Of a DNA stretch of 60,564 bases, positions 4,737-30,709 are shown piece by piece (within the stretch, counting starts at the first letter, position 1; each line of letters starts with the position of its first letter). This stretch comes from an uncultured Mollicutes bacterium (GTDB taxonomy: Bacteria; Bacillota_I; Bacilli_A; Acholeplasmatales; Anaeroplasmataceae): contig CAMELE010000010.1 of assembly GCA_945923475.1 (NCBI GenBank), forward strand, positions 1 to 60,564. The letters are read 5' to 3'. Both the position numbers and the translations under genes were made by a program. The notes under the pieces are model-generated. The model was given only the letters and a program-made list of their open reading frames with translations. It had not been told where the DNA came from and did no database searches.

Positions 4737-5080
4737 TCCATAACCTCCCAAGAGCAACAATATAAACTACAATAAGGAATAATTATTGTTTTTAATATTT
4801 CCTCATTATTATAATTTTTAGATATTTTTATTTTATAAAATCTATAACCTCTGGTATTCTAAGTTATAGGTAACCATATCCATCGCTCATTATTTTCTTG
4901 CCATTCTATACGAGTTTTTGATATTCTGATTGGTATAATATTATTTTTATCTAAATAATTGTAAACTTCTTGCGAATTATCAGTTATATAAGCACATATC
5001 ACTATCTAATTAGAACAAGGATACTTTCTTCCTTGTTTCTAATTAAAATAGTTTGCTAAATCATAAATTGAATGTATCAT
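4733..5080 (-). CDS. hypothetical protein (115 aa, three in-frame TAG)
   Basis: ATG at 5080 forms an ATGA overlap with the nrdD stop. Frame is open to TGA at 4733. Confidence 0.35.
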
Positions 5081-7362
5081 TCCATCTACCCCGTATGTTT
5101 TACTCGTGCTTCTACTTCTTTTTGTTTTCCATAGTTAAAAGCAGTTTTATAATTTCCAGTTAAATAACCGGTTACACGACGCAACTATTGAATATGAGTA
5201 CTACCGCATTCAGGGCATTTATTATTAAATTCATCACAATATCCGCAGTCAAGGCAAGTATCATTAGGTACATTTACCGCAAAATAAGGGATATCTTTAT
5301 CCATAGCATAATTAACAATTTGTTCAAGAGCATCAATATTATGCTTTACTGTAGAATCTAATTCTACATATGTAATACATCCAGCAGAAGAATAACCTGT
5401 CAACTGACTTTCAATATCAATTTTGTCAAAGGGAGAAATTTTCTTCCATACGGGAACATGAATACTATTAGTGAAAAATTCTTTATCAGAAACATTAGGT
5501 ATGATGCCATATTTTTCTTTGAATTTTTGCATTGCCGTATAACATAAATTTTCAGCTGGTGTATAATATACTCCAAAATTGAGTTTATATTCTTCTTTAA
5601 ATTCAGCACAACGTTGTTTAAATAATCCTTCAATCTTCTTAGCTAATTCCATACCTTCTTTGGTAGTATGGTCTTTACCAATAAGAATTTGAAGAGTTTC
5701 AGCTAAACCAATCTATCCTATAGCTAATGTACCATGTTTAAGTGCACTTCTAATTCCTTCTTCTGGAATATATCCTGCCATTAAATTATTTTCATACATA
5801 AACTTTGCAGATTTCGGATCTTGTGAGCAAATCCAATCAAAACGTTCCATTAATTGAATTCTTGCTTCGTTAATCTTTTGATCAAGATTATAAAGAAATC
5901 TATCAATTAAAATTGCATTATCATCGAAAGAATGATGATTTTTTACATCTTTTTCAAAATTAATTTTACATTCCATAGCAATAGTTGGAAGAATGATAGT
6001 TACTGGGCAAATATTACCACGACCATCTTTTAGCTGGCCGAAACCATTAATATCATATCCATTGGCTGTTCTACATCCCATTGTAGAAAAATAGGTACGA
6101 GGATCGTTGATGTCATATCCTGCGTTTCCAGACCAATCTACATTAGCATAATTTGGATACAATCTTGTGGCAGTTGAACGTAATGCGAGTTTAAATAAAT
6201 CGTAATTTGGGTCTCCTTCTTCACGATTAACGCCTTTCATGCATTGGAAAATTCCGCAAGGGAAAATAGAAGTTTTATGTAATTTGCCAATACCTTCAAT
6301 AGATACATCCAAAAGTGCTTTAGTAATCATTCTTCCTTCTGGAAGAGTACAAGTACCATAATTAATAGAGGTAAATGGCAACTAATTTCCTGAACGAGAT
6401 TGTAAAGTATTAAGATTATGATACATACCTTCTACTGCTTGATGGACTTCTTTAATAGTCATATCCATAGCATATTGATATACTTTATTAAAATCTCCAG
6501 CATCATCTATTTCATTTAGATAAGCTGAATAGTCATTAATTGGGATATCTATAATTTTTTTATATGTATCACTATCTTCTAAATAGTTATTTAAATTCCA
6601 ATTACAATTGCATAAGTATTTCATACCATCACGGTAATGCTTATAGAAAGATTTACGAACATAAGGAACCATAGTCCAATCAAGATGAGTGGCACTAACG
6701 CCGCCAAATTGAGAAAGACTTTGAATTTGGAAAATAACAGCTACTAATTGGAAAGCTGTATTTACTGAACCTGCTGGACGTACATCTGTCTGACGTGTGT
6801 TAAATCCATTAGCAAGCAAATCATCAAAAGGAATGCTTAAGCAATTATGAGAACCAACATAATAAGCATCAAGATCATGAGTATAAATCATATTCTCTAA
6901 ATGATTTTTGCGAGTCATAGGAGATACAATATAATCTAAAGCCAATTGTTTAGTTACAACGCTACTGGCTTCACCAATACGGCCGCCGAATGATGCTTCA
7001 TCTACATTCGCATTTTGATTTTTAATATCTTTACCATCTAATTTTTTTCTAATAGCTTGAATGAAATCATCTTTTTTCTATCGAGCTACTTCTTTTTTAT
7101 ATCTATATCTAATATAGGCACGAGCAACATCACGTCGTTCTGACTACATTAAGTAATCTTCAATTATATCTTGAATATCCTCTACTTCAATACTACCATC
7201 TGGACATTTATTTATCCAAGATTCAATATCATTGGCAATATCAATAGCTGTATCGTTTTCATATAACTATCCATCAACTTCTATAAATGCTTTGTTAATA
7301 GCATTAATTATTTTATTTTTATCAAATAATACAACTGTACCATCACGTTTAATTATATACAT
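5077..7362 (-). CDS. nrdD: anaerobic ribonucleoside-triphosphate reductase (class III RNR), about 761 aa, with seven in-frame TAG
   Basis: N-terminal ATP cone (MYIIKRDGTVVLFDKNKIINAINKAF) starts at 7362 after GGAGG. ORFs 6382..6945, 5713..6381 and 5185..5652 lie in one frame. The TAG at 6382-6384 is directly followed by the next codon, and a further TAG lies at 5713. The C-terminus carries Zn-ribbon cysteines and the glycyl-radical motif RRVTGYLTG. Confidence 0.85.
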
Positions 7363-7375
7363 TTTTTAACCTCCG

Positions 7376-7419
7376 CACTAAATATAGTATAAATTTTTAA
7401 ACTTATACTATATTTAGTG
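7376..7419. repeat. perfect 17-bp AT-rich inverted repeat (hairpin) in the nrdD leader
   Basis: CACTAAATATAGTATAA(N10)TTATACTATATTTAGTG, immediately upstream of the nrdD RBS. Confidence 0.5.
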
Positions 7420-7461
7420 TTTGTTATTAGTTAATTATCTATTTTGGCTTAAAATTTAGTA

Positions 7462-8025: not shown

Positions 8026-8384
8026 TTATCAAGATTCCTTAATTTTTCTATTTTATATTGTTCAACATTAGTATTATAACAAATTGAATCTTTAAAATTA
8101 AACCCTTTAAAACTAGCTAACCGAATTTTAGAAATATAAGTCAAAAAATTAAAAGAATTATTTTTTGCCATTCTATATTCATAAAGATCTAAATATACAT
8201 CTAATAACAAAGGAATATCTAGATCTTCACATAATTTAATTATATTTTTAAAATCCATTGGGTTTATAGATTTTCCGCAGTCTTTGCAAATAAATAATCT
8301 TGGCTTACGCCATTCATTTTTAGTAAATATAAAATCTTTAATATTTTTTATCTAATTACAATATGCACATTTTTTATCATTCAT
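8022..8384 (-). CDS. zinc-ribbon protein (120 aa, one in-frame TAG)
   Basis: CAYC...CKDCG Cys pairs. ORF 8022..8258 extends through one TAG to ATG at 8384. ATGA overlap with the downstream kinase. Confidence 0.45.
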
Positions 8385-11300
8385 CTTCAGCTTCTCCCTA
8401 AAAACGATTATTCCTTAAAATTAAGTTCCCATCAGGTTGAATTTCATCAATATGATAAAGTTGATGGCCCGCAGTTGAGGCATACTTTTTAGCAATGAAA
8501 TCATCACCTGAACGAATACCCTGAACTACAATCATATTGCCGCGATTAAACCAAGATTTTTCAATAATTTTTTTAGTTCCATCAGGTTGTTTTTGAGAAA
8601 TTTGTTTATCGAATAACGTAAAATATTCTTTCCTAAATTTTACATTTACTACTCCTGTTGGAGTAAGAATTGTTACGATACTTTTATTTTTATTTTTAGC
8701 AATACAAGTACCGCATAATTTAGATAAATAATAAATATTTATTGTTTTTCCGGCTTTAACAAAACTTCTCTCTACTACTGGGTCTTCAGGTAAACTGTAA
8801 AAATCAGCAAACCCATATTTACTTTGATTCACTTTAGCTAATTCATGTTCATGGTAATAGAAACACAATACTTCCATTTCCCAAGCTGAATAATTTACTT
8901 TAGGACAATATTTTTTCCAATCCTCTTTAAATATAATTTCATTTAACTTATTTAATATTTCTTCTTTATTATCAGCAATTTGTTTACGATAAACATCCAT
9001 CCAACCTTGATAGACTTTATCATTCCAATCTTTAATATTTAAATAAAAATTAGAATCTTTATTCTGAATTAAATCATCTTTATCAATTTTTTGCAAGAAA
9101 TTAATAGCTCTATCATCTAATTTATAATTAATTTTATCATATTTACAAATTTGTTTTAAATAACGAGTAAATTCATAAATATGTAAAGCTTGCTGCCGTT
9201 CAGGAGTATCAGCAGGAAGAAGATTAAATTTCATTAAAGTAGCTAAATTTTGAAGATTAAGATTTTTCTTTTTATCACAAGTTTCCCAAATATACCAAAC
9301 CATACAAAGTTTTCTTTCCATCATATGGTCAAATGCTCCACCCTTAATAAGGGAAATCATTGCTTGCTTATTAGGATTAACTTTATTCAAGAAATCTCTT
9401 GGAGATTTATAGGGTCTATTTTCAATAATAGTTTTAACTACATCATCACCAACATTTAGCATACCTTTTAAACCAAACAGAATTTGATTATTTTCAACAT
9501 CAGGAATAAAACTAAATTCTGATTTATTAATATCAGCAAGGCTTACTTGAATACCAGCCTTACGAATGTCTCCAATAGCTTTAGCAATCTTTCCATAGTC
9601 AGTAGAATTAGTTTTTCTTATCTTAGATTTTCTATCAGGTAAATCTTCAAAAGTAACTCCATTAGCTAAATCGTCAGCTTCTGGGTCATAAATATCTACA
9701 ATTTCTTCTTCGCTATTATCTTCTAGACTTCCGCTATTAACAATCAAACAAGCACAATTCCAATAGATAGGATTATAATGAATAACAAAATAAATCATTT
9801 GAATAGCTACGAAACTATAAGGTAAACTATGATTTAATGAAAACGCATATCCTAATTGCGGTGCTACTGCTGTTTCCCAAAAATATTCTGCATCATTTTT
9901 ATTATCAAAACGACTAAATACTTGTTCTTTTAATTGAGGAATTTTAGCCATTTGTTTTTTAGCAACAACTTTACGGGCGGAATTTGCTTCACCCAATGTA
10001 AAATGTGCTATATCCATAAGGATTTCCATCATTTGTTCTTGTAAAGGACAACAACCATAATATTTATCACAATGTTTATGAAATTTATCAATAAGTTCTT
10101 GTGGCAAATGATGTTGTTTCATTTCTTTATCAAATGCTTGGATACCTTGATGTTGAATACGATAAAATCTATCTTGCTGTGATTCTTTGCCCTTTTCAGA
10201 CATAAGACGCATCATAGCATTAGCCGCGGTCATTTCCATAGGATTTTGCGGTTTTAATTTTTTAGCGATAGCTAATCCTACACCAGTAGAGAACTGGAAA
10301 CAGTCTAATACATCACCAGCGGCAAGATGATCCCAAATCTTTTGGTCTGTTGTATCTATTACTTCTGGATGAATATATTGATTATAAAAATCTCTTAAAG
10401 ATAAATTAGGAATTTCTTTTGCTTTTAATAGTAATTCATAACAAGTAATAATTTTGTCAGAAGCTTCAGTGACAAGGAAATCATATTTCGTATCACCTGC
10501 TGCTTCAGCTTGATGCAAATCCCAACAAGTAATTAAACTACCACTAGGTGTTCTCATAAATGCTGCTGTATCATATGGATCATCGCCATAAAGAATAACA
10601 CCAGAAGCATGAGAAGAACGTTTATTAACGATGCCACCAATATAAATAATTATATCAAGAAGTCCTGGATATTCATTTACTTTATTAATAAATGCTTTAA
10701 CAGGTTTTCTATCTTTTTCTTCATTGCCATAAATAACATCATTAATTTCCCATAAAAATCCACGCTCTTGTGGAATAAGAGAAGACATATATTGAGCTTC
10801 ATCTACATCAATACCATTTGGATATTTATCAGATCTATATCCTCTACAAGCAGTAAGAATGGCAGATTTAGTAGTTTCAGTACCAAAAGTAGCAACCTGA
10901 ATTAAACCTAATTCTCCACGCTCTTTACGAATAGCTTCAAAAATCGCTGGTCGTTTTGAAGGAGCCAAATCAATATCAATATCAGGTAGTTCGGCTCTCT
11001 CTTTATTCAAAAATCGCCAATATGGTAAACCCCATCGAATTGGATCCAATTGAGTTATTCCTAATAGATAGTTAGATAAGAAACCTGTGGCTGAACCACG
11101 TCCTGGACCTACAATAGAACCACAATCCCAAAACAAGTCAATATAATGTTTAAAAGTATTAAAATAGGCAAAAAGGCAATCATCTAATTTTTCGCCAATA
11201 TCTTTTATAATATCTGCTTCAATTTCAAGACGATTTAAATAAATATCTAATTTATCATCTAAAATGCTTTTGTTATATATTTTTTCTAATAAAGACATAT

Positions 11301-12375
11301 AACATTCATTAACCCAATATCTTTCTTGCGGGTTATCACTCATTAATAAGCTACATAAGATAGGATATTTTTCTGTGCGTTCAAACCAACCAGCTAATGA
11401 TTGAGGATAATCAGTTACTTCTACTTTTGGAATTATTTGTTTTCTTTCAAGAGAAAAATCTTCAATCTTATTTTGAATTTCTAAAGTATTATTTAAAATT
11501 TCTTTAGCTATTTCTTCTGGCTGCTCTTCTATGTCTAAATATATAAAACAAGGAGTAATTAATTCAAAGACTTCATCATAAGTCATTAAATGAGCAAATT
11601 CATAAAACTTATCAACTTCTCGTTCTCCATCTTTTGAATTAAGATAAGCTTTATGAATTGGTCTATCTTCTTTTGTTAAATAATGACTATCAGTAGCAAC
11701 TTCTACTTTAATTCCATAACTGCGACCAATCTTATAAATCATATGATTTACAAGTTTTTGATCTGCCGCTGTTGATGGAGCAATCTCTAAATAAAAATCT
11801 TCACCAAATAAGTCTTGACAAAAAGTAAGAAAAGTATCTATTTGTTTTAAAGTTTGATATAATTCATAGTTATTTTCTTGTTCTCTATACTCTACAGCCT
11901 TTAAAAGGCTAGTGCCTAATTCTCCGCCAATACATGCAGTAGTAGCAATTAAATGCCCCTTGTATTTTTCTACTATTGGCTTTAATTCACTCTTTAGAAG
12001 TGGAACACGTTCCATCTTTCTATCAATATATAAATTTTGCCAAGCAATTGAACTTAATTCTTTTAATGCTCGATACCCTATAGCATCTTTAGCAATTAAA
12101 ATAAAATGGTAATATTTTTGTCCTGTGCTTCTATCATCAGTTAAATAAATTTCATTGCCTAATGCTATTTTAAAATTTGGATATTTTTCTTTGATTTTTT
12201 TAGCATATTGATTTACTGTCATATGAGCAGAAAGACTTTCGTGATCTGTGATAGCAATTCCCGAAAGTCCTAACTCAATAGCTTTATCAATTAAAGTTTC
12301 TGGTTTATTTATACAATCCAGTAAACGGAGGTTCGAATACATTGTATGATTATGGCAACCAAAATAAGTATTCAA
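8377..12375 (-). CDS. dnaE: DNA polymerase III alpha subunit (DnaE-type, PHP domain)
   Basis: 1325-aa ORF with PHP motif (GCHNHTMYS...ITDHESL) and a DnaE-like polymerase core. TTG start 7 nt after GGAGGT. One near-C-terminal TAG is read through to TGA at 8377. Confidence 0.9.
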
Positions 12376-13235: not shown

Positions 13236-13298
13236 ATGTTATTTCCTTATAACTACTAATTTTTCACTGGCTCTTGTAATACCAGTATATAAATATTT

Positions 13299-14357
13299 CT
13301 AATGTTCTAATGTATCAAAAGGATGTGGTTCTTCGATCAATAACACTTTATCCCATTCACTACCTTGGGCTTTCCAAACAGTTATTGCATAAGCATAAGC
13401 AAAATAATAAGGAGCTTCTAATGCATCGGAATTTCTAGCAAAACTATTCATTCTAAATGCTTGTTTATTATCAAAGGCTGGAGTACCTGTAATTAAAGCA
13501 TCATAATCAATAGGGATAGATTCAAATCTTCCATTAGGTATATCCATTCCTGTAAACATATATTGAAGTTGTTTATTATAAATAAAACTTGGATAATTAT
13601 ATGGAATAATTTGATAATTAGTAATTGTTCCAATACATCCATTAGTTAAAGGCCATAAGCCATCAGTAGATGTAAAATCCCAATGATTAGTTAATCCTAT
13701 AATTTTATCTCCTATTTCTGGAGTAGCTCCTCGTCCTTGTCGCTCTCGAACTTTATTATTAATTTCAATACGTCTTTTATTAGAAGCACATAAAGTCTGA
13801 TCTGCCCAATCATACATTTCTGGGATTAATTCGTAGGGTTTTAAAATCTAAACCTATTCTTTAGCAACTGGAAATTGCCCTAAAGGCTTGCCTTCTCGTA
13901 CCCACATAGATAATCTAATAATTTCACTATCTTGTGCTTGTCGCATAATTTCATCTAAAAAAATATGCGGTTTATCCAAAACGTGATTATTTTCATTTGT
14001 GTCTACTGGTGGAAGCTAAAATGGATCACCACAAGCAATTACATATTTATTATGTGAAAGAAGTAAATCCCACATCGTTTTAGGCAACATTGATATTTCA
14101 TCTACAATGATTACTTTATATGGAATAGGCCATCTTTTTTTTAAATAAAAAGTGCCATTGGGTCTTGGCTTAGCTTCATATAATAACTTGTGTGCTGTTG
14201 TTGCATTAGGACATCCTTTTGTTTGAAGAACAGTTGCTGCTTTACCAGTATAAGCTATATATGCTACATCAGTTTCAGGATTTAAATTCAATGATTGAAC
14301 TATAAATTTTACTAATGTAGATTTGCCAGTTCCAGTTAAGCGTAGCCAGCAATACAA
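13299..14357 (-). CDS. SF1 Dda/RecD-like DNA helicase with internal in-frame TAG
   Basis: ORF 14016..14357 carries Walker A (GTGKST), IIVDEISM and GDPF. ORF 13299..13817 carries motif VI (AITVWKAQGSEWD). The frame joins through the TAG-containing segment 13818-14015. Start is uncertain (TTG at 14357 inside a hairpin). Confidence 0.7.
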
Positions 14358-14417
14358 GTATAAGGTTCATGGTTCTTGTATCTGGCTACAGCAATTTTCA
14401 ATCCAGCATTCTATTTA

Positions 14418-15557: not shown

Positions 15558-17300
15558 TTAAAAATAATATTTTACATTTTTAGTAATATGATAATCAGTA
15601 ATAAAAATTTCTGGATTAGTTTTTCCTAAAAATTCATTTATTTTACAAGTGCCTATGATATCAATAATAATGCATCCTGTATCACTATATAAATTATTAT
15701 ATTCTTCTTGATTAACATTAAATTTAATTAAATCTAAATCATTTGGCAATTTAATTTTTAATGTTCCAGTAGCCTCTTTAGGATAATAAATTACATTATT
15801 ATTTGTAAGTTTTAAATTTTTAATAACTATATATGGCTCTTTGAAATTCTATCCCCATAAAGGTTCAAATTCTGGTATTTCTAATATAGTATTTATATCA
15901 ATATTATTACTATCAAAAATATAATCAGCTAAATAAACTGGCTAACCATCATAACCATACAATTTACTGTTTGTATCTGTTATAAATTTTCTTATATTAT
16001 TATCAGCAATTTTCGCTCCAAAAGCTCCTTGATGGCCTTCTGCAAATTCAAAATACCCAGTAGAATTAAGATAAGCCTTAAAGTCTTTTATAGGCTCAAA
16101 GAACTCATAACCACGACCTGATCCTTCCCAATATTTAATTCCATTTTCAATTACTTCATTAAGTATAAGAGTTGGTTTCTAAAATCTATTTGCAAATTCA
16201 TTTGCAATTAATCCAGTTAAATTTTTATTTACCTCATACTTTTTCTCCAACTAAACAACTAAAATCTAATCATTTAATAGACCTTGTTCTTCAATTAATT
16301 TTTCAATTATTTCAACGTTAGTATCACGAATTTTAGTCTATCGTGTTTTTACATTGCCACTTATTCGGCATGCTTGTTCTACAATAGTTTCTGCCTATCC
16401 TTTACATCCTCTTTTGGTTGATGGAATTAAATCGTAAGCAAGAAAATCTAACATGCTCTAAAATACAACTTGTCGTTCATCAGTTTCTCCAACACGTGTG
16501 ACCGCATTAATAAGTGGAGCAATATAGAAAGCAACACCCATAGGAGTTAAAGTTTCTTTTAACTTAAATTTATTTTTTTCCATCATACCTTTAATATAAG
16601 GATTTTGAGGATTTTTTAAACCTTGATTGATAAAATAACGAGTTTCATAAGGTCTACTATCCACCATATCTCCGATTAATCCAAGAGCCACTAAATCTAA
16701 ATATTTATTTGAGTAATTAGTATTAATAATTTCATCAATAGCATTACAAAATTTATATACTATAGCAACGCCTGATAATGCTTTATTAGGATAATTATCT
16801 AATTGATTATTAATTGTACAAGCATAAGGAGATATTTTATCTGCTTCATGATGGTCTAAAATTAATATATCAATACCCTTATCATAAAGTGCCTTGTGCT
16901 CATTATACTAATTACTTCCAGCATCTGGAATTATTACTAACTTAGTATCTTCTGGAATAGTATCTAAAATAATACCATGAGTTTTTTGAGTATGAACTCT
17001 ATAATAAACATTATTAGATACATAATAAGGAAATAAATTATATAAATAATTAATTAATAATGCCGAGGATGTATAGCCATCACAATCAGCATCTACCTAA
17101 ATAAAAATTTTATTATTCTATTTAATATGTTTTAATAATAATTTAATTCCCTATTCCATGTTATCCAATAACTTATTAGGATATACATCGGATTGCGTGG
17201 GATTAAGAAAATGCTAAATATCTTCAGTCTTAATCCCACGATTATTCATTATTGTTTCTAATGGAGTTTTTTGTGTATTATTAATTAATTTATAATTCAT
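15558..17300 (-). CDS. recJ: RecJ-like DHH-family ssDNA exonuclease (580 aa) with more than ten in-frame TAG
   Basis: DHH motifs VDADCDGYTSSALL and LDHHEAD, DHHA1 motif AEGHQGAFG. The frame is continuous from ATG at 17300 (after GGAG) through ORFs 16458..16691 and 15558..15749. Length is 1743 nt (581 codons). Interruptions are TAG only. Confidence 0.75.
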
Positions 17301-17311
17301 ATACTTACTCC

Positions 17312-18415
17312 TTATATAATTATTCGTTCTTTATATAATTTAAGAAATAATTCCGGCCCTTCATCAGTTGGACTATCTTTATAATTAGTAAGCATATTTT
17401 TATCAAAAATAAAAGATATATTAAAGTAATTTCCATACTTAGCTTTTATTTTTAATAAGTTATTTTTTAAATGATAAAATTCTTCATCACCTATTTTTTG
17501 AAATTGTCTATCAAAAGCAATAATAATATCTTTTGCACCAACCTGCTCTAACAATTTCATTTGCTGTGCTGATACACTACTACCGCAACAAGCTACTGTT
17601 ATATCATTCTCAAAACCAAAATAACTTTGATATTGTAGAGTAGATTTTTCACCTTCAAATATTATTGCTTTCCCTGTTCTATTTATATTTGCTTTACTAT
17701 TATTTAAATTATATAAATTCATACCAAGAGGATGAGAATAAAGAACCTTATTAATTTTTAATGGCCTATATTTACCATATAATAATGCTTCTTCTTTTCC
17801 TAATACTCTTCCCCTTAAACCTATAAAATCTCCATTTATATTAAAATGAGGAATTGTAATTGCATCGCCGCCAGGGTAATAACCAATTATGGCTTGGTCT
17901 ATTGCCTCTTGGCTTATTCCTTCTTTTAACCACGGGGTTAATTTTACATTATAATTAAATCTACTTAAAATTTGGCTATCATAAATTTTTAATTCAACTT
18001 TAGAGTTTAAATTTTCTTCTATATTATTTTTATCATAATTAGCTAAAATTTTCCAATCTTCTAATCCTAAATTTTCAGCATCTTCTTCAACTGAGCCAGC
18101 AATCCCAAAATAATTAGCTACCCAACGAACTGCATCATTTAAATCATATTCTTTATTAGATTGGATATAAGCCACTTTAATTACTAATTCAAATATATCA
18201 AATATATCATCACAGCCAGTATAGCATTTAAATAATTGACTATTTGAATAATAATAAAGTTTTTTACTTCCTACTCCTGGTTCATTATGGCAAATAGTTT
18301 CAGAAAGGATACCAAATTCACTATATTCAGGATTGCCTCCCCAAATATTTAGTAATTCAAAAATATTATCTAAAGTTAAACTATTTTTTATTTCTGTTTT
18401 ATCATAGTTAATCAT
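17312..18415 (-). CDS. dnaG: DnaG-like DNA primase (zinc finger plus TOPRIM)
   Basis: CHNEPGVGSKKLYYYSNSQLFKCYTGC zinc finger. TOPRIM EGEKS...DRQ. Confidence 0.8.
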   Translation of the reverse strand: MINYDKTEIKNSLTLDNIFELLNIWGGNPEYSEFGILSETICHNEPGVGSKKLYYYSNSQLFKCYTGCDDIFDIFELVIKVAYIQSNKEYDLNDAVRWVANYFGIAGSVEEDAENLGLEDWKILANYDKNNIEENLNSKVELKIYDSQILSRFNYNVKLTPWLKEGISQEAIDQAIIGYYPGGDAITIPHFNINGDFIGLRGRVLGKEEALLYGKYRPLKINKVLYSHPLGMNLYNLNNSKANINRTGKAIIFEGEKSTLQYQSYFGFENDITVACCGSSVSAQQMKLLEQVGAKDIIIAFDRQFQKIGDEEFYHLKNNLLKIKAKYGNYFNISFIFDKNMLTNYKDSPTDEGPELFLKLYKERIII

Positions 18416-18434
18416 TATTAACTTAATAAAATTA

Positions 18435-18617
18435 TTAGAATGTAATTACATTGACACAAGTGCCTTTAACACCAAATTCTTCATTAACCACCTAAATAAG
18501 ATATTCTTTTGGATGCTTCTTGGCAAATTCGCCCTTTGCAGTCTTTAAATACATTGCTGCCATTTCTTTTGGCATTTTATATTCAATAGTTCCATTCATA
18601 ATATTTTTTTCAAACAT
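18435..18617 (-). CDS. small hypothetical protein (60 aa, one TAG)
   Basis: ATG after GGAGATTAAATT. Double stop TAATAA. Confidence 0.35.
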
Positions 18618-18634
18618 AATTTAATCTCCTTATT

Positions 18635-20167
18635 TTAAAATGCACTATCTTCAGCGATTCTAATTTTTACATTTTCCATATCTACTAATTCATAACTCCA
18701 ATCAGTACAAAAAATTGGAATAATGCGGCAACAGCCTAAATCAGCTTTACACCATAAATAAATACCTTTATATTTTCCTCGACGATTTTTATATACTGAT
18801 AATTTTATTGTTGGACGTTCAAACGTATTTGTTTCAAGTATTTTCTCTAAAGATTGATAATCATTATCACGAGCTTGAAGAAGAAGCATACCTACATCAA
18901 TTTTATCAGCAATTGCTTTTGATCCACGTAAAACATTCTGATCTGGCGTTTCACTATACTGGTAATCAGCATTTAATTGAGTAGCAGACATAATAAAAAT
19001 ACCATATTGATTACAAATATCTTTCAAACGAGTAGAAAGCATAAAAAGAATATTATCTTCTCTTAATTTTACACCGCCACTACGTTTGCTTATTTCTTCA
19101 AGAATCTTCATACTTGTATGAATATAGTCATGAAATACATACTTAATACCATGGTCTCTTATATTTTTCTTAATAACATTTTCTACATCACGCAAAGAAA
19201 AATCTGGCATTTCTACAACAAATAAATTAGCCTTACGAAGATATTGTGCAGCTTCTCTTACTCGTGCTAATTCATCACCAACATATTTACCATTTAAAAT
19301 ATGGTCTTCATTTACATTAGATAAAAATGCCAACATCATAGTTTGAATTTCATCTTTAGTCTGCTCAGTAGAAATAAATAAAACAGGTTCTCCTCCACCG
19401 CCAGACTTAATCCATCCAATTCCTTCTTGATAATACTTTTCACAAGAAAGATAACAAGCATCAGCAATCATGCTACGAGATTTACCTACGCCAGTTGCTG
19501 CCGAACGTAAATAAAATTTATTTAATCTTGCTCCACGAGTAACTGTATTAATTAATGGACCAAACAATGGAGCACCAACTTCAGGGTGTTCCAAAAGATC
19601 ATCAATTAATTCATCAATATCATTACCAGCCTGATAAGCATCATTTTCCATTTCGGCCACATATTTATATTTAATTTCTTCAATCTTATCATCAATACGT
19701 TGAGCAATTTTTTCTAATGAAGCATTATCTAACCATTCTTCTTGAAGCTGTCGTTTTTTAGTATCTAAAATATTGTCAGGATCGTAAATATCGCTTACAT
19801 CAAAACCATATCTATCATACGCTCTAAGTAATGACATTTTTTTTAGACGACCATAATAATAATCGAATGTTGTATTATCGCTATGTAAACTAGCTTCTTG
19901 AAGCCATTTATTCCCTTTTTGTGCTTCATAAATGGCTTGATATTTTGGTCTAGTACTTAAAAAATCTCCAATTGCGTCTAAAGTGATACTTTCTGCGCCT
20001 AATTCATGTAGTTTATATATTGATCCATATACTATCTTATGAAAATCATTATCAAAATCATCTTCAGTAATAATATATTTGTCAGTATAATCTAATAATT
20101 TAGGATTGTTATATACACAACCAATTGTCTAAATAATGGCTGTTGTATCAATATATTTTGAAGCCAT
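18635..20167 (-). CDS. dnaB: DnaB-like replicative helicase (510 aa, two in-frame TAG in the N-terminal domain)
   Basis: C-terminal RecA fold with Walker A SAATGVGKS (ORF 18635..19837). The N-terminal domain is in frame upstream through two TAG to ATG at 20167 after GGAGG. Length is 1533 nt. Confidence 0.85.
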
Positions 20168-24237: not shown

Positions 24238-25236
24238 TTATTTAATACTATAACCAAATTCTTTTGCTTGATAAAATTCCTACCAATAATCTTCTCGACT
24301 ATCTAAAAGAGATTTATCACATTCTTCAAGAATTTCAAAAGTAAATTGTTCCGGTCCTAATTCATACATAGCCGGATAAAGTTTATTACGAGTTGGTGCT
24401 TCTGCTCCAACTCCACGCTTTATATGTTGTTTCCAACGATCAGCAATATTAACTGCCTAACCTATATAGCATTTTTGATTTTCTATATTGGTAATTTTAT
24501 AAATACCAGTATGGATACCTTGACCAATTACTCGACCAATTAAATCAGTATAAGATTTTTCATAATAAACTTTCCAAATAACTTTATTAATTGGTTCAGC
24601 ACTTCTTAAATAAGGAATAATTGAACGAAGTTTTTTAATTTCTTCAATATCAATTTCACTTAAATTAAGTTTATAAAACTATTCTTTTTGTTTTACTTCT
24701 TCGGCACGTTTATTAGCTTCAACAATAGCATTTTGTTTTGCTTTTGCTTCTACTAATTCCTGAGATATTTTATTTAATTCTTCCTATTTTTGAATAATTA
24801 AATTAGTATATTCTTTTGTGCTTTCTTCAATAGCTTTTAGATACTCTTGTTGATAATTATCTTCTGCCTATTGGTATTTCTATGCCATCTATTCAGCAGA
24901 CTAAGCGAATTTTTCAGAAGCTAATTCATTAGCTTTTTGGCAATACATTTCCGCATTTAAACTTGCTTGCTAATAATTATCATCAAGAATTTTCTTTTTA
25001 TCTTTTAAAAAATCTATTTCTTTTATTAATGAATTATAATCATTATTTAAATTAGAGATTTTTTCATTTAACTAATTTTGAATTTGAAGAAGTCTTTGAC
25101 TTTCTTCAATAATTTTTGCGTTTTCTTCTCTTGTTTGAGTATCTAATTCAATTGTGGCTTTTAATTTATTACGCAGGCCTAAATATAAAAGACCAGCACC
25201 AAGAAGAAAACATATTACGCAATAAATTATAGTCAT
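24238..25236 (-). CDS. TM plus long coiled coil plus C-terminal GIY-YIG/T5orf172-like nuclease domain protein (DUF4041-like architecture), about 8 in-frame TAG
   Basis: N-terminal TM helix IIYCVICFLLGAGLLYLGL and Q/E/K-rich coiled coil. C-terminal GIYKITNIENQKCYIG-TAG-AVNIADRWKQH is a GIY-YIG motif. Length is 999 nt (333 codons). Confidence 0.55.
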
Positions 25237-25908: not shown

Positions 25909-27117
25909 TCAAAATATTGTATTCAATAAACAATCCTGTGGATTTTTATCATCACGAAATCCTTTAAAGAAAGCATGACGTAATGTATATTCCTTACTGT
26001 CTTTTTCCATACATTGTAAAGAAACTACTCTATTAAGATACTTTTCAGGATGTTTTGCAAAATCATCACGTAATTCATCAGTTAATCCTGAAGAAACTGT
26101 TCCAATTTCTACAATTTCACCATTGTCATTATAAGCTCCAATATGAATTGCAGTTTTCCATCCATAAAAATATCCTTTAGTAACTGGTGTATAATATCTT
26201 TCATTATCATTTACTAATTGAGATCCACAATTTGTATTGCTACGATTTTGAGTATATTTATAATAATAATTACCACTTAATAATTGAGGATTAACCCAAC
26301 CAGCAAAACAATGATCTTCTTCAAAACAATCATAAAAACTTGGTTCTTTTACTTCCCAATATTGCCAACTCTGGATTTCTTTACCTTCATATTCTTTAGT
26401 CGCATCATCAAAACCAATAAGAATTGCATCAAGATAATCAATTTTTTTAATTTTAATAGACGACCAAGCTGGTCTTTTATCAGGAGCATATTGAGCTGTT
26501 TTTAATTTAAGAACAACACCTTCTTCTCCGTCTTTAAGAGCTTGGGCAGTAAAATCATAAATATCTTCATATACTGCTTCAGCTAATTCCATAAAAGAAT
26601 ATTGACTAAAATTAAATTTTTCCCAAATTTTTCGTAAAATCTTATAACGAGTTAATGCACCATAAGATTGTAAATCTATGCCATTATATTTAATTACATC
26701 GTGTAAATAAAAATGAACTGGATTATCTTTTTGGCGATTAATAGCTTCATCAGCTAAACAACCCATTACTCGTGTTACATCTTTAGACGTTTTACCTGGA
26801 TAATAAATTTCACCAATTAATATTGTTCCTTTTGGAACAACTTGCAAAGCTTCTTTAATATGAGGAACATTTGCTAATTTTTCAGTAAGAATACCAGTAT
26901 TTTTACTGACATTCCTACTGAAAAGATACATATGATTATTAGTTTTTTCAAACTCATACCAATATCCATCTTTTTTTAATTCAGCAAAATAATTCCCATT
27001 AATGCACATTTCTGGAAACATATTTTCTTTTCCATCAGGAAGTTTCCAAATTTTCATCGCTTGAATACACTCGGCTTCAGGAGCATATTTATCAATAAGT
27101 TCTTGAGAGAAAGACAT
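25909..27117 (-). CDS. lig: ATP-dependent DNA ligase
   Basis: Adenylation motif I AELKKDG (KxDG) and nucleotidyltransferase/OB architecture. 402 aa, no TAG. Confidence 0.8.
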   Translation of the reverse strand: MSFSQELIDKYAPEAECIQAMKIWKLPDGKENMFPEMCINGNYFAELKKDGYWYEFEKTNNHMYLFSRNVSKNTGILTEKLANVPHIKEALQVVPKGTILIGEIYYPGKTSKDVTRVMGCLADEAINRQKDNPVHFYLHDVIKYNGIDLQSYGALTRYKILRKIWEKFNFSQYSFMELAEAVYEDIYDFTAQALKDGEEGVVLKLKTAQYAPDKRPAWSSIKIKKIDYLDAILIGFDDATKEYEGKEIQSWQYWEVKEPSFYDCFEEDHCFAGWVNPQLLSGNYYYKYTQNRSNTNCGSQLVNDNERYYTPVTKGYFYGWKTAIHIGAYNDNGEIVEIGTVSSGLTDELRDDFAKHPEKYLNRVVSLQCMEKDSKEYTLRHAFFKGFRDDKNPQDCLLNTIF

Positions 27118-27124
27118 AATTTAT

Positions 27125-27170
27125 GTACCTTTCTTTATTTATATTATATTAAAAAATTTTTTGAAATGCA
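27125..27170 (-). promoter_or_regulatory. consensus sigma70 promoter
   Basis: Minus strand reads TTGCAT-N17-TATAAT upstream of the ligase. Confidence 0.5.
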
Positions 27171-27172
27171 AA

Positions 27173-29506
27173 TCAAATTTTTGTAATTGATTTTACTCTA
27201 CTATTCTTAATTACTGATGAACCAACAGCATATTTAGAACCCAATGTAATATCTTTAGCAGAAATACAAATATTATGCTTATCGCCACCGATAAATAAAT
27301 TATCTGAATCATTAATTAAAGAGCCACCAATGATAGGGCCAGTCATTTTATCTACTTTATATAGATTAATACCGCGGCCGCTACGTTTTTGAGCAGGCAA
27401 TTCACTTAATTTAACTTTCTTAGCAAATCCATTTTGAGTAAATAATCCTAAGTAATCATTATTATCTCTTAATGGCAAGACACAGACAATTTCATCATCT
27501 ACTAAGTTAATGCCTTTTACGCCACTACTATTTCGAGAAGTAGATCCAATTTCATTACTATTAAATCTAATTGCATAACCATTCTTTGTAAGAATAATTA
27601 ATTGTTCATCTTTAATCAGAGAAACATTAGCTAATGCATCATTCTCTCTAATAATAACAGCAGACATACCAGTTTTCTTTTTTGTTTTAATATATTCTTC
27701 AAGAGTAGTCTTTTTAATTAAACCATTCTTAGAGGCAAATAAAACAAATTCGGCATTTGTATCTCTATAAATAGAATACATTGTAGTAACTTTTTCGCCA
27801 GGTTCCATTGTAATCAATGCTGAAATAGGAGTTCCTGTACTTGCATTTGTTCCTACTGGGATATCATTTACTAATAGGCGATACATTTGTCCTTTATTAG
27901 TAAATAGCATAAGATTATCAATAGCATTAGTTCTTAATACACAATAAGTAATATCTTCTTGTGATTTTATTCCTTTACCATTTTTCTTTTGGGTTTTAAA
28001 ACTGGCAATAGGAATACGTTTAATGGTTCCGCCTTCAGTCATTATGACTACACATTTTTCAGGTTCTACATTAATAATTTCTTTTTCAGCTTTTTCTTCT
28101 ACAATTTGTGTTAATTCAGTCCTACGATCATCGCCATATTTATCAACTAAATTTTTAAGGCGAGAACGCAATTCAGGAATAGGATTTTCACAAATGGCTT
28201 TGAGTTTAATAATTAATGCTTCAAGTTCAGCTTTTTCTTTTTCTAAATCCATTTTATCCAATTTAGATAATTTAGATAATTTCATATCAAGAATTGCCTG
28301 TGCTTGAATATCAGTAAATCCCCAAGAAATTAATGTTTGTTTCGCTGCACTAGGTGATTCAGATTGTTTAATCATTGCAATAATTTTATCAATCATATCT
28401 AATGCTTTTAAAAGCCCTACAATAATATGTAATCTATTTTCAGCTTTATTAATATCAAATTTACATTCTCTAATAATACAATTAGAATTAAAATCAATAT
28501 AAAGTTTGATACAATCTTTAAGATTTAATTCTGTAGGAGTTTTATTCACAAGAGCTACTTGATTATAAGAAAATGTTGTTTGAAGATTAGTTTTAGCAAA
28601 TAATTTACTTAAAACTGATTTAATAGGAGCATTTTTTTCACATTCAATAACAAGACGGAAACCTTGCTTTCTATTACTTTCATTACGAATATCTTCAATT
28701 CCAGTAATATCCCCAGCATCACATAACTCACCAATTTGAGTCATTAAATCTTCAGTAGTAATTCCATAAGGCATTTCAGTAAATACAATATTATTATTTT
28801 CAAATTTATATTTGCCTCTAATTTTTACAGAACCGTGACCTGATTTCATAATCGCTGGAATATCATTTTTATTAATAACTATACCACCTGTAGGAAAATC
28901 AGGGCCAGGAAGAGTTGGTTCTTTACCATCCATATAATCATAAATGGCTTGAGCAACTTCTTTTAAATTATGAGGTGCCCAAGAACAAGCCATTGCAACG
29001 CCAATACCAGAATTTGGATTACATAATAAATTAGGAAAAATAGAAGGTAACTCAACAGGCTCTTGCTTAGTTTCTGAATAATTAGGAATAAAATCAACGC
29101 TATTCTTTTTAATAGAAGATAGCATTCCTTCTTCAGTAATTTTAGCTAAACGAGCTTCTGTATAACGTTGAGCCGCGGGAGGATCGCCACCAATATTACC
29201 ATTTGCACCGTGGAAATCAATTAATGGATAACGCATAACCCAATTCTGGCTTAATCTAATAAGAGCACCATAAATAGAACTATCTCCATGAGGATGCCAA
29301 TCAGCCATTACATTACCAACAATATTAGCACATTTTACATGAGGTTTGTCATTTTTAAAACCACAATCATATGCTCCATATAGTATTCTTTTTGCTACTG
29401 GTTTTAATCCATCAGTAGCATTTGGAATAGCTCTATCAGTATTAACTGCTACGGCATATTCAATAAAATTAGTGCCTAATTCATGTAATACATCGTTATT
29501 CAGCAT
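27173..29506 (-). CDS. type IIA topoisomerase A subunit (GyrA/ParC-like; T4 gp52 analogue)
   Basis: DGLKPVAKRILYGA and active-site AAQRYTEARL. Start at internal ATG (MLNNDV...), 9 nt after AAGGAGG. No TAG. Confidence 0.85.
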   Translation of the reverse strand: MLNNDVLHELGTNFIEYAVAVNTDRAIPNATDGLKPVAKRILYGAYDCGFKNDKPHVKCANIVGNVMADWHPHGDSSIYGALIRLSQNWVMRYPLIDFHGANGNIGGDPPAAQRYTEARLAKITEEGMLSSIKKNSVDFIPNYSETKQEPVELPSIFPNLLCNPNSGIGVAMACSWAPHNLKEVAQAIYDYMDGKEPTLPGPDFPTGGIVINKNDIPAIMKSGHGSVKIRGKYKFENNNIVFTEMPYGITTEDLMTQIGELCDAGDITGIEDIRNESNRKQGFRLVIECEKNAPIKSVLSKLFAKTNLQTTFSYNQVALVNKTPTELNLKDCIKLYIDFNSNCIIRECKFDINKAENRLHIIVGLLKALDMIDKIIAMIKQSESPSAAKQTLISWGFTDIQAQAILDMKLSKLSKLDKMDLEKEKAELEALIIKLKAICENPIPELRSRLKNLVDKYGDDRRTELTQIVEEKAEKEIINVEPEKCVVIMTEGGTIKRIPIASFKTQKKNGKGIKSQEDITYCVLRTNAIDNLMLFTNKGQMYRLLVNDIPVGTNASTGTPISALITMEPGEKVTTMYSIYRDTNAEFVLFASKNGLIKKTTLEEYIKTKKKTGMSAVIIRENDALANVSLIKDEQLIILTKNGYAIRFNSNEIGSTSRNSSGVKGINLVDDEIVCVLPLRDNNDYLGLFTQNGFAKKVKLSELPAQKRSGRGINLYKVDKMTGPIIGGSLINDSDNLFIGGDKHNICISAKDITLGSKYAVGSSVIKNSRVKSITKI

Positions 29507-29714
29507 TGTAAGTTGCCTCCTTTGAATGTTCTTTAATATAGGCTTTTCTGGCATTAACTCCTTGGCCCATTAAATCTTCAAACAATTTATCAGTAGCTTC
29601 TACATCTTCTACAGTAATTTGCTTAATAATACGATTTTCTGGATCAGTTAAAGTTTCTTCTGTTTCATCAACATCCATTTCGCCTACGCAATCATCCAAT
29701 ATCACTATTGGCAC
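29496..29714 (-). CDS. small acidic hypothetical protein
   Basis: 72-aa ORF. Its stop overlaps the topo A start. Confidence 0.35.
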   Translation of the reverse strand: MPIVILDDCVGEMDVDETEETLTDPENRIIKQITVEDVEATDKLFEDLMGQGVNARKAYIKEHSKEATYNAE

Positions 29715-29827
29715 TGACTATTTCTTCACTCAGGCTTACGTATTAACTGCCTTCATTGTGCTCACCTTTTTGAAATGCGTATCAATAGCATTTCTACTCC
29801 CTAACAACAGGGATAGTCGATACAGGT

Positions 29828-30517
29828 TTAAACTATGATATTTTTCCAATTCTAATAAGTCCATACATTCGTAAATGAACCATATGTTATTTTATTAGAA
29901 TAGTCCTTATAAACTTCTCTTATATTTTCACCATTTTTACGACGTAATCTAATTTGATATACATCATTTTCATTTAAGCGAGAACGACCATTTTTACTAC
30001 CATTATTTGATGTATTATGTTTATGAAAATTTTTATTTTCTTCAGTAAATACTTCTGGCATAACATTTTTCCACGTTTCACCATTCCATATTTTATGAAA
30101 ACCTGATTCTCCAATTAAATCTTTATAATCTTCATAAACTTTATTTTTTCGTTCGTGATTATTATAACGAGAACGAATATTGATAACATCTTGTTTAGTT
30201 AATTTATGACTAGGATGACACTCTTCAGCATTAAACTATCCTCCAGGAGTCATATTATATTGGTCAGGATAAGTATTATAATATTTAATATAATACTATT
30301 CTCGTTCATTTAGTTGATTTATCTTACATTCTTCTAATACTTCAAATGTAAAATTTTCTAACCCAAATTCTTGGATAGCCTAATATAATTGTTTATTAGT
30401 TTCTTTATTCCAATTATATTGACTCTTATGTTCTTTAAATCGTTCTTCAATTTGAGTACTCTATCCAATATAAGAAAAATTGTTTATCTTATTTGTAATT
30501 TTATATATACCTATCAT
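29828..30517 (-). CDS. GIY-YIG homing endonuclease (free-standing, about 5 in-frame TAG)
   Basis: MIGIYKITNKINNFSYIG-TAG-STQIEERFKEH is the GIY...YIG motif. ORF 29852..30061 is its C-terminus. Length is 690 nt (230 codons). Inserted between the topo A and topo B genes. Confidence 0.75.
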
Positions 30518-30709
30518 TATAATTACCTCACTTAATTAGTAAGATAATATCATAGTTTCTTCCCACGAGATTATCTTCATTTATATTTAAATTTTATCCA
30601 TTTCAAGATTTCCTGAAATGTCCAAATTTTGAAGACTGCCTCGTTAGCCTATTACAATTAATAGACCCCACTGATAAGTGGAAAAGTGAGTAAGGGCCAG
30701 ACTTACTTC

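What the first reader, a model, noticed from the sequence alone, without database searches (positions are those of the whole stretch)
5077..7362. TAG (amber) is read as a sense codon, most likely Gln (genetic code 15)
Every gene that looks broken in the ORF track is interrupted only by TAG, never TAA or TGA. Frames stay open for kilobases across the TAGs, and conserved motifs span them.
- **nrdD:** ATP cone, catalytic core, Zn ribbon and the glycyl-radical motif (RRVTGYLTG) are collinear across 7 TAG, including a TAG directly abutting the next codon at 6382.
- **PhoH:** the DEAQN box is encoded ...SEA-TAG-NMD... at 36247, which identifies the amino acid as Gln.
- **Amidase_2:** the terminal H...CPG motif of the endolysin continues after a TAG at about 35007.
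- **RecJ:** DHH and DHHA1 motifs are spread over more than 10 TAG.
- **DnaB and Dda-like helicase:** N- and C-terminal halves join across TAG.

Genes end in TAA or TGA, frequently as ATGA overlaps or double stops such as TGATAA, so TGA is a genuine stop. About 45 genes in the window need TAG readthrough.
Basis: partly seen in the sequence, partly recalled or inferred. Interest (0 to 1): 0.85.

Follow-up and report, generated by a model that had tools for sequence, protein, structure and literature searches.

The report
Phage reads TAG as glutamine
This is part of a large gut-type phage genome that reads the stop codon TAG as glutamine, a known phage habit, but here the suppressor tRNA is an odd one that a standard tRNA finder misses.

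Summary
The nrdD gene (5077-7362, minus strand) has 7 in-frame TAG codons and no TAA or TGA. It aligns end to end with solved NrdD structures. In all, 34 of 65 minus-strand ORFs carry 105 in-frame TAGs. Coding density is 66% under code 11, 88% with TAG as sense and 68% with TGA as sense.

Codon comparison with 50 related IMG/VR loci shows TAG exchanging mainly with CAA and CAG. Gln beats Lys by 57 log-likelihood units, and the same method called 56 of 56 control codons correctly. The TAG in PhoH sits on the Q of DEAQN.

The window has one at 58672-58746(-): anticodon CTA, a non-canonical D loop and T loop, missed by ARAGORN but found by Rfam at 37.9 bits. Two close relatives carry unrelated canonical CTA tRNAs at the same junction.

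TAG use is gene-specific. Replisome genes almost lack it (2 of 142 Gln-type codons). RecJ, homing endonucleases, a holin-like ORF and two large unknown ORFs are rich in it.

This is a new member of the known class of code-15 recoded phages. The unusual suppressor tRNA is the only new element.

The parts
5077..7362 (-). nrdD (anaerobic ribonucleotide reductase), 761 aa, with 7 in-frame TAG codons starting at 7267, 7144, 7078, 6382, 5713, 5185 and 5086. It ends in TGA as an ATGA overlap.
   Evidence: PDB 8p23 E 2e-127 over residues 3-759. Pfam NRDD 2-562/562, ATP-cone and Gly_radical. Site 6382 faces CAA 16 / CAG 12 in relatives; site 5713 faces CAA 14 / CAG 14. dN/dS 0.04.
58672..58746 (-). Non-canonical amber-suppressor tRNA with anticodon CTA. 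It has a U1.C72 mismatch, G73 and an encoded CCA. The D loop is AGCAGCAA (no GG) and the T loop is GGCAGCA (no TTC).
   Evidence: Rfam tRNA 37.9 bits (gathering score 29), E 9e-6. Cloverleaf MFE fold. Missed by ARAGORN. The L053 variant has 3 compensatory double changes. It is syntenic with the canonical CTA tRNAs of L048 and L049.
15558..17300 (-). RecJ-like exonuclease, 580 aa, 13 TAG. This is the most TAG-rich gene (13 of 24 Gln-type codons).
   Evidence: Pfam DHH and RecJ_OB. Binomial P 2.6e-5. TAG share 0.44 across recoded relatives. dN/dS 0.07.
36019..37275 (-). PIN-PhoH protein, 5 TAG. The TAG at 36247-36249 stands for the Q of the DEAQN box.
   Evidence: Pfam PhoH and PIN_4. Alignment to PDB 3b85: iseaXnmd against ldeaQntt.
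34674..35966 (-). CHAP + Amidase_2 endolysin, 2 TAG (35007 and 34899).
   Evidence: Pfam Amidase_2 over residues 202-336, spanning the TAG at residue 320, plus CHAP.
34195..34653 (-). Small membrane protein immediately downstream of the endolysin gene (holin-like, inferred from hydrophobic segments and position). TAG makes up 4 of its 7 Gln-type codons.
   Evidence: P 0.017. No PHROG match.
13239..14366 (-). SF1 (Dda/RecD-like) helicase, 4 TAG. The start codon is uncertain.
   Evidence: Pfam AAA_30, AAA_19 and UvrD_C_2. Site 14016 faces CAG 28 / CAA 1 in relatives.
24238..25236 (-). ORF with a C-terminal GIY-YIG homing-endonuclease domain, 10 TAG.
   Evidence: PHROG homing-endonuclease families.
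29828..30517 (-). GIY-YIG endonuclease-like ORF with 5 TAG, lying between the TAG-free gyrB-like and gyrA-like genes.
   Evidence: Site 30461 faces CAA 20 in relatives.
54525..58014 (-). Two large ORFs of unknown function (293 aa and 863 aa) with 3 and 11 TAG, just downstream of the tRNA cluster.
   Evidence: TAG share 0.36-0.46 in L048-L050. No PHROG match.
8377..12342 (-). DNA polymerase III alpha-like gene, 1321 aa, with a single TAG 7 codons before the stop. It serves as the TAG-poor reference gene.
   Evidence: tblastn finds about 38% identity to SPbeta and Enterococcus phage polymerases. TAG is 5 of 672 Gln-type codons across recoded relatives.
17312..20167 (-). Primase (0 TAG), a 60-aa ORF at 18435-18617 (1 TAG) and DnaB-like helicase (1 TAG at codon 13).
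   Evidence: PHROG DNA primase; Pfam DnaB_C.
25909..32419 (-). ATP-dependent ligase, gyrA-like and gyrB-like topoisomerase genes, all TAG-free. The GIY-YIG ORF listed above is inserted between the two topoisomerase genes.
   Evidence: Pfam; 0 TAG among 52 Gln-type codons.
60450..60524 (-). Ordinary phage tRNA-Gln(TTG) in the same tRNA cluster.
   Evidence: ARAGORN; Rfam 65.4 bits.

Best explanation
**What it is.** The window is about 60 kb of a 110-200 kb tailed-phage genome with low GC, probably infecting Firmicutes. It uses genetic code 15: TAG is translated as glutamine, and TAA and TGA terminate.

**How it works.** Decoding is done by a phage-encoded amber-suppressor tRNA with anticodon CUA. 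In this lineage that is most likely the non-canonical tRNA at 58672-58746(-), presumably charged with Gln by host enzymes.

**Which genes use TAG.** The replisome genes (polymerase, primase, DnaB, ligase, topoisomerase subunits, RNase H) are almost free of TAG. They can therefore be made by the unmodified host machinery. nrdD, recJ, phoH, helicases, homing endonucleases, the lysis genes and two large ORFs next to the tRNA cluster need the suppressor. Their full-length synthesis therefore depends on the suppressor tRNA being expressed.

**Shown:**
- TAG is a sense codon.
- It is equivalent to Gln.
- A CTA-anticodon tRNA gene is present.
- TAG use is biased by gene, and the bias is conserved across the clade.

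**Inferred:**
- This particular tRNA is the active suppressor and is charged with Gln.
- The bias serves temporal control of expression.
- The host uses the standard code.
For: **TAG is a sense codon.**
- Conserved proteins align full length across TAG.
- Coding density is 66% under code 11 and 88% under code 15.
- dN/dS is 0.02-0.21 for nearly all TAG-bearing genes, against a relative from the contig that carries the same odd tRNA.

**TAG means Gln.**
- Log-likelihood is -168 for Gln against -225 for Lys and -232 for Glu, with 56 of 56 controls correct.
- In pairs at 80% identity or more, TAG faces CAA 46 times and CAG 12 times.
- The PhoH TAG sits on the Q of DEAQN.

**A suppressor tRNA is present.**
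- Rfam tRNA 37.9 bits with anticodon CTA, and a cloverleaf fold.
- Three compensatory pairs in the L053 variant.
- Exact synteny with the canonical tRNA(CTA) of L048 and L049.
- All three suppressor types have a mismatched 1:72 pair and G73. These are features of tRNA-Gln identity in E. coli (my own knowledge, not tested here).

**TAG use is gene-specific.**
- Heterogeneity chi-square P 4e-14.
- Replisome genes have 2 of 142 Gln-type codons as TAG (P 3.5e-9); RecJ has 13 of 24.
- The same bias holds in relatives: polymerase 5 of 672, RecJ 131 of 298.

**It matches published work.** The pattern matches the model and data of Borges et al. (bioRxiv 10.1101/2021.08.26.457843) and the proteomic proof of code 15 in crAss-like phages (PMC9523058, abstract).
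Against: - No protein or RNA data exist for this phage, so both termination at TAG and partial readthrough remain untested.
- The tRNA lacks the D-loop GG and T-loop TTC that almost all bacterial elongator tRNAs have. It scores only 37.9 bits, and its fold energy is not exceptional (z -1.5). It could be inactive.
- Only about a third of the genome is in the window, so another suppressor may lie elsewhere.
- The early/late split is imperfect. DnaB has a conserved TAG at codon 13. nrdD and recJ, often early or middle genes, are TAG-rich. No structural module is in the window to compare.
- At some sites, distant homologues have Lys or aromatic residues.
Confidence: 0.9

Rival explanations
1. The TAG-interrupted genes are pseudogenes or true truncations in a decaying prophage or defective element.
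For: Under code 11 many genes are fragmented, and coding density is 66%.
Against: - Only TAG interrupts genes; TAA and TGA never do.
- TAG positions are conserved or exchange with CAA/CAG in relatives.
- dN/dS is 0.04-0.16 in sequence downstream of TAGs.
- There are no frameshifts in 761-aa and 580-aa alignments.
- A CTA tRNA is present.
Confidence: 0.01
2. TAG is a sense codon for an amino acid other than Gln, such as Lys, Glu, Tyr, Trp or pyrrolysine. ARAGORN labels the CTA tRNAs of relatives 'tRNA-Pyl'.
For: - In the alignment with PDB 8p23, several NrdD TAG sites face K, F or G.
- Lys and Glu are the second and third most frequent partners, at 12% each.
- ARAGORN gives the label Pyl.
Against: - The log-likelihood gap is 57 units or more in favour of Gln, with 56 of 56 controls correct.
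- The NrdD site that faces F or Y in PDB homologues faces CAA 14 / CAG 14 within the clade.
- The PhoH TAG sits on the Q of DEAQN.
- ARAGORN's 'Pyl' label only names the anticodon.
- No pyl genes were seen among the window proteins scanned. That scan was not exhaustive.
Confidence: 0.04
3. Recoding is real, but the odd tRNA at 58672-58746 is a degenerate relic or a tRNA-like element with another role. TAG would then be decoded by a different suppressor encoded outside the window.
For: - It lacks the conserved D-loop and T-loop nucleotides, has a modest Rfam score and an unexceptional fold z-score.
- Other recoded phages carry two or three suppressor genes (PMC10607447).
- Only about a third of the genome is visible.
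Against: - Three compensatory double substitutions keep the cloverleaf in L053, while the anticodon loop, CCA and both odd loops are invariant.
- It occupies exactly the slot of the canonical suppressors in sister genomes.
- The two canonical types were not found, by exact anticodon-arm search, in the contigs that carry the odd type.
- TAG density is unchanged in that lineage: 0.162 in L017 against 0.168 in L003.
Confidence: 0.3

Closest known systems
Code-15 (TAG to Gln) recoded gut phages: crAss-like, Lak and the Garnet, Amethyst, Agate and Topaz clades (Ivanova et al. 2014 from my own knowledge; Borges et al. bioRxiv 10.1101/2021.08.26.457843; Peters et al. PMC9523058)
   Same: - In-frame TAG in conserved genes, aligning with Gln.
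- A phage-encoded CTA suppressor tRNA.
- Low GC content.
- TAG rarely used as a terminator in standard-code relatives (8 of 216).
- Replication machinery largely in standard code, with lysis genes and homing endonucleases biased towards the recoded codon.
- Standard-code and recoded genomes intermixed within one clade.
   Different: - No clade assignment is possible, because no terminase lies in the window.
- nrdD and recJ are heavily recoded here.
- The suppressor in this lineage is non-canonical and escapes ARAGORN.
- No RF2 or aminoacyl-tRNA synthetase was seen among the 36 larger window proteins scanned.
Phassvirus group (phAss-1, OQ749652; Babkin et al. 2023, PMC10607447)
   Same: - Gut phages of about 135 kb that use TAG for Gln in 41 ORFs (28% of the total).
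- They carry tRNA-SUP-CTA genes and no dedicated synthetase.
- They are distantly related to Enterococcus phage EF1. EF1 is among the best cultured-phage matches to the polymerase here, at about 39%.
- Recoding is patchy across the wider group.
   Different: - No nucleotide-level match to any INPHARED phage over the first 25 kb of the window (1-25000).
- The polymerase is only about 38-39% identical to the EF1-type enzyme.
- Relatives here have 105-201 kb contigs.
- Membership was not tested directly against phAss-1.
E. coli supE-type amber suppressor (tRNA-Gln with CUA anticodon; my own knowledge)
   Same: CUA anticodon with U35, A37, G73, G10 and a weak or absent 1:72 pair.
   Different: The window tRNA is not derived from the phage's own tRNA-Gln (52% identity). 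It has non-canonical D and T loops.

Membership tests
Genetic code 15 recoded phage | In-frame TAG, but no TAA or TGA, inside homology-supported domains | tested here: met
   NrdD, PhoH, RecJ, endolysin, SF1 helicase and radical SAM protein
Genetic code 15 recoded phage | TAG columns correspond to Gln in homologues | tested here: met
   Log-likelihood Gln -168 against Lys -225, with 56 of 56 control codons correct; the Q of DEAQN
Genetic code 15 recoded phage | Coding density rises specifically when TAG is read as sense | tested here: met
   66% rises to 88% for TAG; TGA as sense gives 68%
Genetic code 15 recoded phage | Phage-encoded suppressor tRNA with anticodon CUA | tested here: met
   Window 58672-58746(-), Rfam 37.9 bits; canonical versions in L048 and L049. 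Activity was not tested.
Genetic code 15 recoded phage | Subset of genes (early or replication) compatible with the standard code, with lysis or late genes recoded | tested here: inconclusive
   Replisome genes have 2 of 142 Gln-type codons as TAG, and the holin-like and endolysin genes are recoded. However, nrdD and recJ are also recoded, no structural module is in the window, and expression timing is unknown.
Genetic code 15 recoded phage | Gln found at TAG positions in peptides | not testable with these tools
   Needs proteomics
Genetic code 15 recoded phage | Accessory code-change genes (RF2, GlnRS); optional, present in a minority of genomes | tested here: not met
   None among 36 window proteins scanned against Pfam or PHROGs. 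Smaller ORFs and the rest of the genome were not examined.
Canonical bacterial-type elongator tRNA | Cloverleaf with 7/4/5/5-bp stems, U33 and a 7-nt anticodon loop | tested here: met
Canonical bacterial-type elongator tRNA | G18-G19 in the D loop and T54-Psi55-C56 (GTTCRANNC) in the T loop | tested here: not met
   D loop AGCAGCAA and T loop GGCAGCA; ARAGORN fails to call it
Pyrrolysine system | TAG columns Lys-like or unique, with pylTSBCD genes present | tested here: not met
   Gln is strongly preferred over Lys. No pyl genes among the scanned proteins.
Phassvirus (Babkin 2023) | Nucleotide-level similarity and synteny with phAss-1 | tested here: not met
   No megablast match of window 1-25000 to any INPHARED phage. 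I assume, but did not verify, that OQ749652 is in that collection.

The most novel reading that the evidence does not exclude
The amber suppressor of this lineage is a structurally non-canonical tRNA. It has no D-loop GG or T-loop TTC, and it has a U1.C72 mismatch. It has replaced a canonical suppressor at the same genomic slot and is invisible to a standard tRNA finder (ARAGORN misses every copy tested here).

Such tRNAs could account for part of the roughly 60% of TAG-recoded phage genomes in which no suppressor tRNA has been detected (Borges et al.). The slot behaves like a swappable cassette: three unrelated CTA tRNAs occur there in genomes whose flanking DNA is about 87-93% identical, and one of them lies next to a GIY-YIG-like ORF.
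Probability: 0.5. Interest if true: 0.6.

Novelty: new member of a known kind. Interest (0 to 1): 0.4.

Why it matters
- **Annotation.** Under table 11 this genome and its relatives are mis-called: about a quarter of the coding sequence is lost and half the genes are split.
- **Biology.** It adds a Firmicutes-type large-phage lineage to the recoded phages. Standard-code and recoded genomes are intermixed in this clade, and the gene-specific TAG bias is conserved. Both fit the published idea that recoding gates expression of part of the phage programme.
- **The useful new point.** It gives a concrete non-canonical suppressor tRNA, with compensatory changes supporting its fold. Borges et al. suggested such tRNAs as one reason suppressors are not detected in many recoded phages; this one makes the idea testable. 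It could also interest people who engineer orthogonal tRNAs.

Tried and rejected
- **Nucleotide search.** Megablast of window 1-25000 against INPHARED phages found no match.
- **Source lookup.** An exact-sequence lookup of the polymerase, to find the source contig, found nothing on record.
- **Mis-spaced pattern.** My first degenerate search for the odd tRNA used the wrong spacing (15 N instead of 14) and returned nothing, wasting one scan. The corrected pattern found only 3 viral contigs and 1 metagenome contig. The covariation evidence therefore rests on three distinct sequences.
- **tRNAs near the polymerase.** ARAGORN found no tRNA in the 37 polymerase-centred loci scanned.
- **Large unknown ORFs.** PHROGs gave no function for the 863-aa and 293-aa TAG-rich ORFs or for the holin-like ORF. 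I do not call them tail fibres or a holin as fact.
- **Near-terminal TAGs as former stops.** I considered that the TAGs near the ends of NrdD, the polymerase and the 7456-8025 ORF were ancestral stop codons. I rejected this for NrdD and the polymerase because relatives have sense codons there.
- **Pseudogenes.** Rejected on the dN/dS values.
- **Literature.** A search for non-canonical phage suppressor tRNAs found nothing specific.
Full report
**1. The observation**

The window is 60,564 bases with 30.5% GC, and almost all genes lie on the minus strand behind GGAGG-type ribosome-binding sites. I read TAG as X and TAA/TGA as stops. Under that reading the ORF at 5077-7362(-) gives a 761-aa protein with 7 in-frame TAGs, starting at 7267, 7144, 7078, 6382, 5713, 5185 and 5086.

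- It aligns over residues 3-759 with the solved NrdD 8p23 (E 2e-127) and with two other NrdD structures.
- It covers Pfam NRDD 2-562 of 562, plus the ATP-cone and Gly_radical domains.
- The glycyl-radical motif LRRVTGYLTG directly follows the TAG at 5185.

The other examples also hold.

- PhoH has 5 TAGs. The one at 36247-36249 aligns with the Q of LDEAQN in PDB 3b85.
- The CHAP + Amidase_2 endolysin has a TAG at 35007 inside the amidase match.
- RecJ has 13 TAGs between DHH and RecJ_OB.
- The SF1 helicase has 4 TAGs and the radical-SAM protein has 6.

Two details in the finding are off. DnaB has a single TAG at codon 13, so it is not split into halves. I count 34 of 65 minus-strand ORFs with TAG (105 TAGs), not about 45. 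Genes end in TAA (48) or TGA (17), with 11 ATGA overlaps and 11 tandem stops.

**2. More than chance, and not decay**

A simple non-overlapping gene call covers 66% of the window under code 11. It covers 88% with TAG as sense, 68% with TGA as sense and 79% with TAA as sense, the last with more genes falling on the wrong strand.

I compared the window with a 97.7%-polymerase-identity relative (L017 and L050, which come from one contig). TAG-bearing genes there are under strong purifying selection: dN/dS is 0.04 for NrdD, 0.07 for RecJ and 0.16 for the 863-aa ORF. This rules out pseudogenes.

**3. Which amino acid**

The polymerase gene retrieved 47 related IMG/VR loci, from contigs of roughly 5 to 200 kb, at 36-98% identity. 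A second query retrieved three loci around the tRNA cluster. I aligned code-15 ORFs of the window to ORFs of these loci.

- 84 window TAG sites have aligned partners, and 68 of them face a sense codon in at least one relative.
- Site-weighted, the partners are Gln 36%, Lys 12% and Glu 12%.
- An empirical likelihood built from the same alignments gives Gln -168, Lys -225 and Glu -232. The same procedure names the right amino acid for 56 of 56 control sense codons.
- In pairs at 80% identity or more, TAG faces TAG 204 times, CAA 46 times and CAG 12 times.
- In reverse, 17% of window CAA sites and 15% of CAG sites face a TAG in some relative, against 5% or less for any other codon.
- The NrdD site at 5713 faces F or Y in distant PDB homologues but CAA 14 / CAG 14 within the clade.

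TAG therefore means Gln.

**4. The decoder**

ARAGORN found only tRNA-Gly, tRNA-Leu and tRNA-Gln(TTG) in the window. In the close relatives L048 and L049 it finds a tRNA with anticodon CTA between tRNA-Tyr and tRNA-Leu. The window aligns through that spot but carries a different sequence there.

Rfam's tRNA model matches the window sequence at 58675-58746(-) with 37.9 bits (gathering score 29, E 9e-6). With the encoded CCA the gene spans 58672-58746. It folds as a cloverleaf. Its features are:

- anticodon loop CUCUAAA;
- a U1.C72 mismatch and G73;
- D loop AGCAGCAA, which lacks GG;
- T loop GGCAGCA, which lacks TTC.

The same gene occurs in three IMG/VR contigs and one ENA contig. ARAGORN misses every copy. 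One variant, L053, differs by three compensatory double changes: 6:67 G:C to C:G, 7:66 A:U to G:C, and 28:42 C:G to U:A. The loops and the 1:72 mismatch stay fixed. With only three distinct sequences this is suggestive rather than strong.

The three suppressor types at this slot share 56-59% identity, no more than unrelated tRNAs do. L049 has a GIY-YIG-like ORF inserted right after its suppressor. Exact anticodon-arm searches did not find the two canonical types in the contigs that carry the odd one. TAG density is the same in both kinds of genome.

All three types have an unpaired 1:72 position and G73, which are tRNA-Gln identity features in E. coli. That rests on my own knowledge and was not tested.

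**5. Which genes use TAG**

TAG makes up 16.4% of Gln-type codons overall, but the share is very uneven between genes (chi-square P 4e-14).

| Gene set | TAG / Gln-type codons |
|---|---|
| Polymerase, primase, DnaB, ligase, GyrA-like, GyrB-like, RNase H | 2 / 142 (P 3.5e-9) |
| RecJ | 13 / 24 |
| GIY-YIG ORF at 24238-25236 | 10 / 28 |
| GIY-YIG ORF at 29828-30517 | 5 / 13 |
| Holin-like ORF | 4 / 7 |
| 863-aa ORF | 11 / 34 |

The bias is conserved in recoded relatives: polymerase 5 of 672 and RecJ 131 of 298.

A second TAG-free set has higher GC and uses CAG for Gln, so it looks recently acquired. It comprises the flotillin, major-vault-protein-like, DUF2828/DUF7788 and N6-methylase genes.

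Within the clade, genomes with at least 74% polymerase identity are recoded. Many at 53-68% have no in-frame TAG, while a few others in the 54-66% range do. Standard-code relatives use TAG as a terminator in only 8 of 216 orthologues.

**6. Comparison with what is known**

All of this matches the published picture of stop-codon recoding in gut phages. That picture includes TAG read as Gln, suppressor tRNAs, standard-code replication genes, recoded lysis genes and homing endonucleases, patchy recoding within clades, and prior loss of the codon as a terminator (Borges et al.). There is proteomic proof of code 15 in crAss-like phages (PMC9523058, abstract). A further TAG-to-Gln group distantly related to Enterococcus phage EF1 has been described (PMC10607447).

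The window shows no nucleotide match to cultured or deposited phages. Its polymerase is about 38% identical to those of SPbeta and Enterococcus phages.

[quoted passage not shown] The tRNA found here is a concrete candidate of that sort.

**7. Verdict**

This is a new member of a known kind. The non-canonical, cassette-like suppressor tRNA is the part worth following up.

Noticed in passing
window 59607-60193 (-) and 58360-58472 (-): A full-length ROOL RNA (321 bits) and a RAGATH-33 RNA (139.6 bits) lie inside the tRNA cluster, flanking the suppressor tRNA region. The same pair is present in L054.
   Followed up: partly
window 60359-60445 (-): A tRNA-Tyr(GTA)-like gene next to tRNA-Gln. It has C instead of U at position 33 and a compensated anticodon stem. 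ARAGORN misses it here but calls its homologues in L048, L049 and L054.
   Followed up: partly
window 40674-42080, 45932-48415, 48997-50535, 51209-52525 (-): A set of TAG-free genes with higher GC (36-42%) that use CAG for Gln: SPFH/flotillin, a major-vault-protein-like protein (MVP_shoulder + Vault_3), DUF2828/DUF7788 and an N6 DNA methylase. They look recently acquired. An MVP-like gene in a phage is unusual.
   Followed up: partly
window 53354-54415 (-): A secreted protein with two SLH (S-layer homology) domains and no TAG. It hints at a Gram-positive host with an S-layer.
   Followed up: no
window 38161-38961 and 38965-40314 (-): A protein with a very Cys-rich N-terminal region lies directly downstream of a radical-SAM enzyme that has a Cys-rich C-terminal region. 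This may be a peptide and maturase pair. Both genes carry TAGs.
   Followed up: no
L049 6525-7577: In this relative a different canonical tRNA(CTA) is followed by an insert of about 1 kb holding a GIY-YIG-like ORF (6810-7577). That suggests homing-endonuclease-associated swapping of the suppressor cassette.
   Followed up: partly
L054 3795-3932: The tRNA-Gln(TTG) homologue in this metagenome contig carries an insertion of about 66 nt relative to the window copy. Rfam still matches the whole model across it.
   Followed up: no
window 29828-30517 (-): A GIY-YIG endonuclease-like ORF with 5 TAGs is inserted between the TAG-free gyrB-like and gyrA-like genes. This parallels the recoded intron endonuclease reported in Agate phages.
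   Followed up: partly
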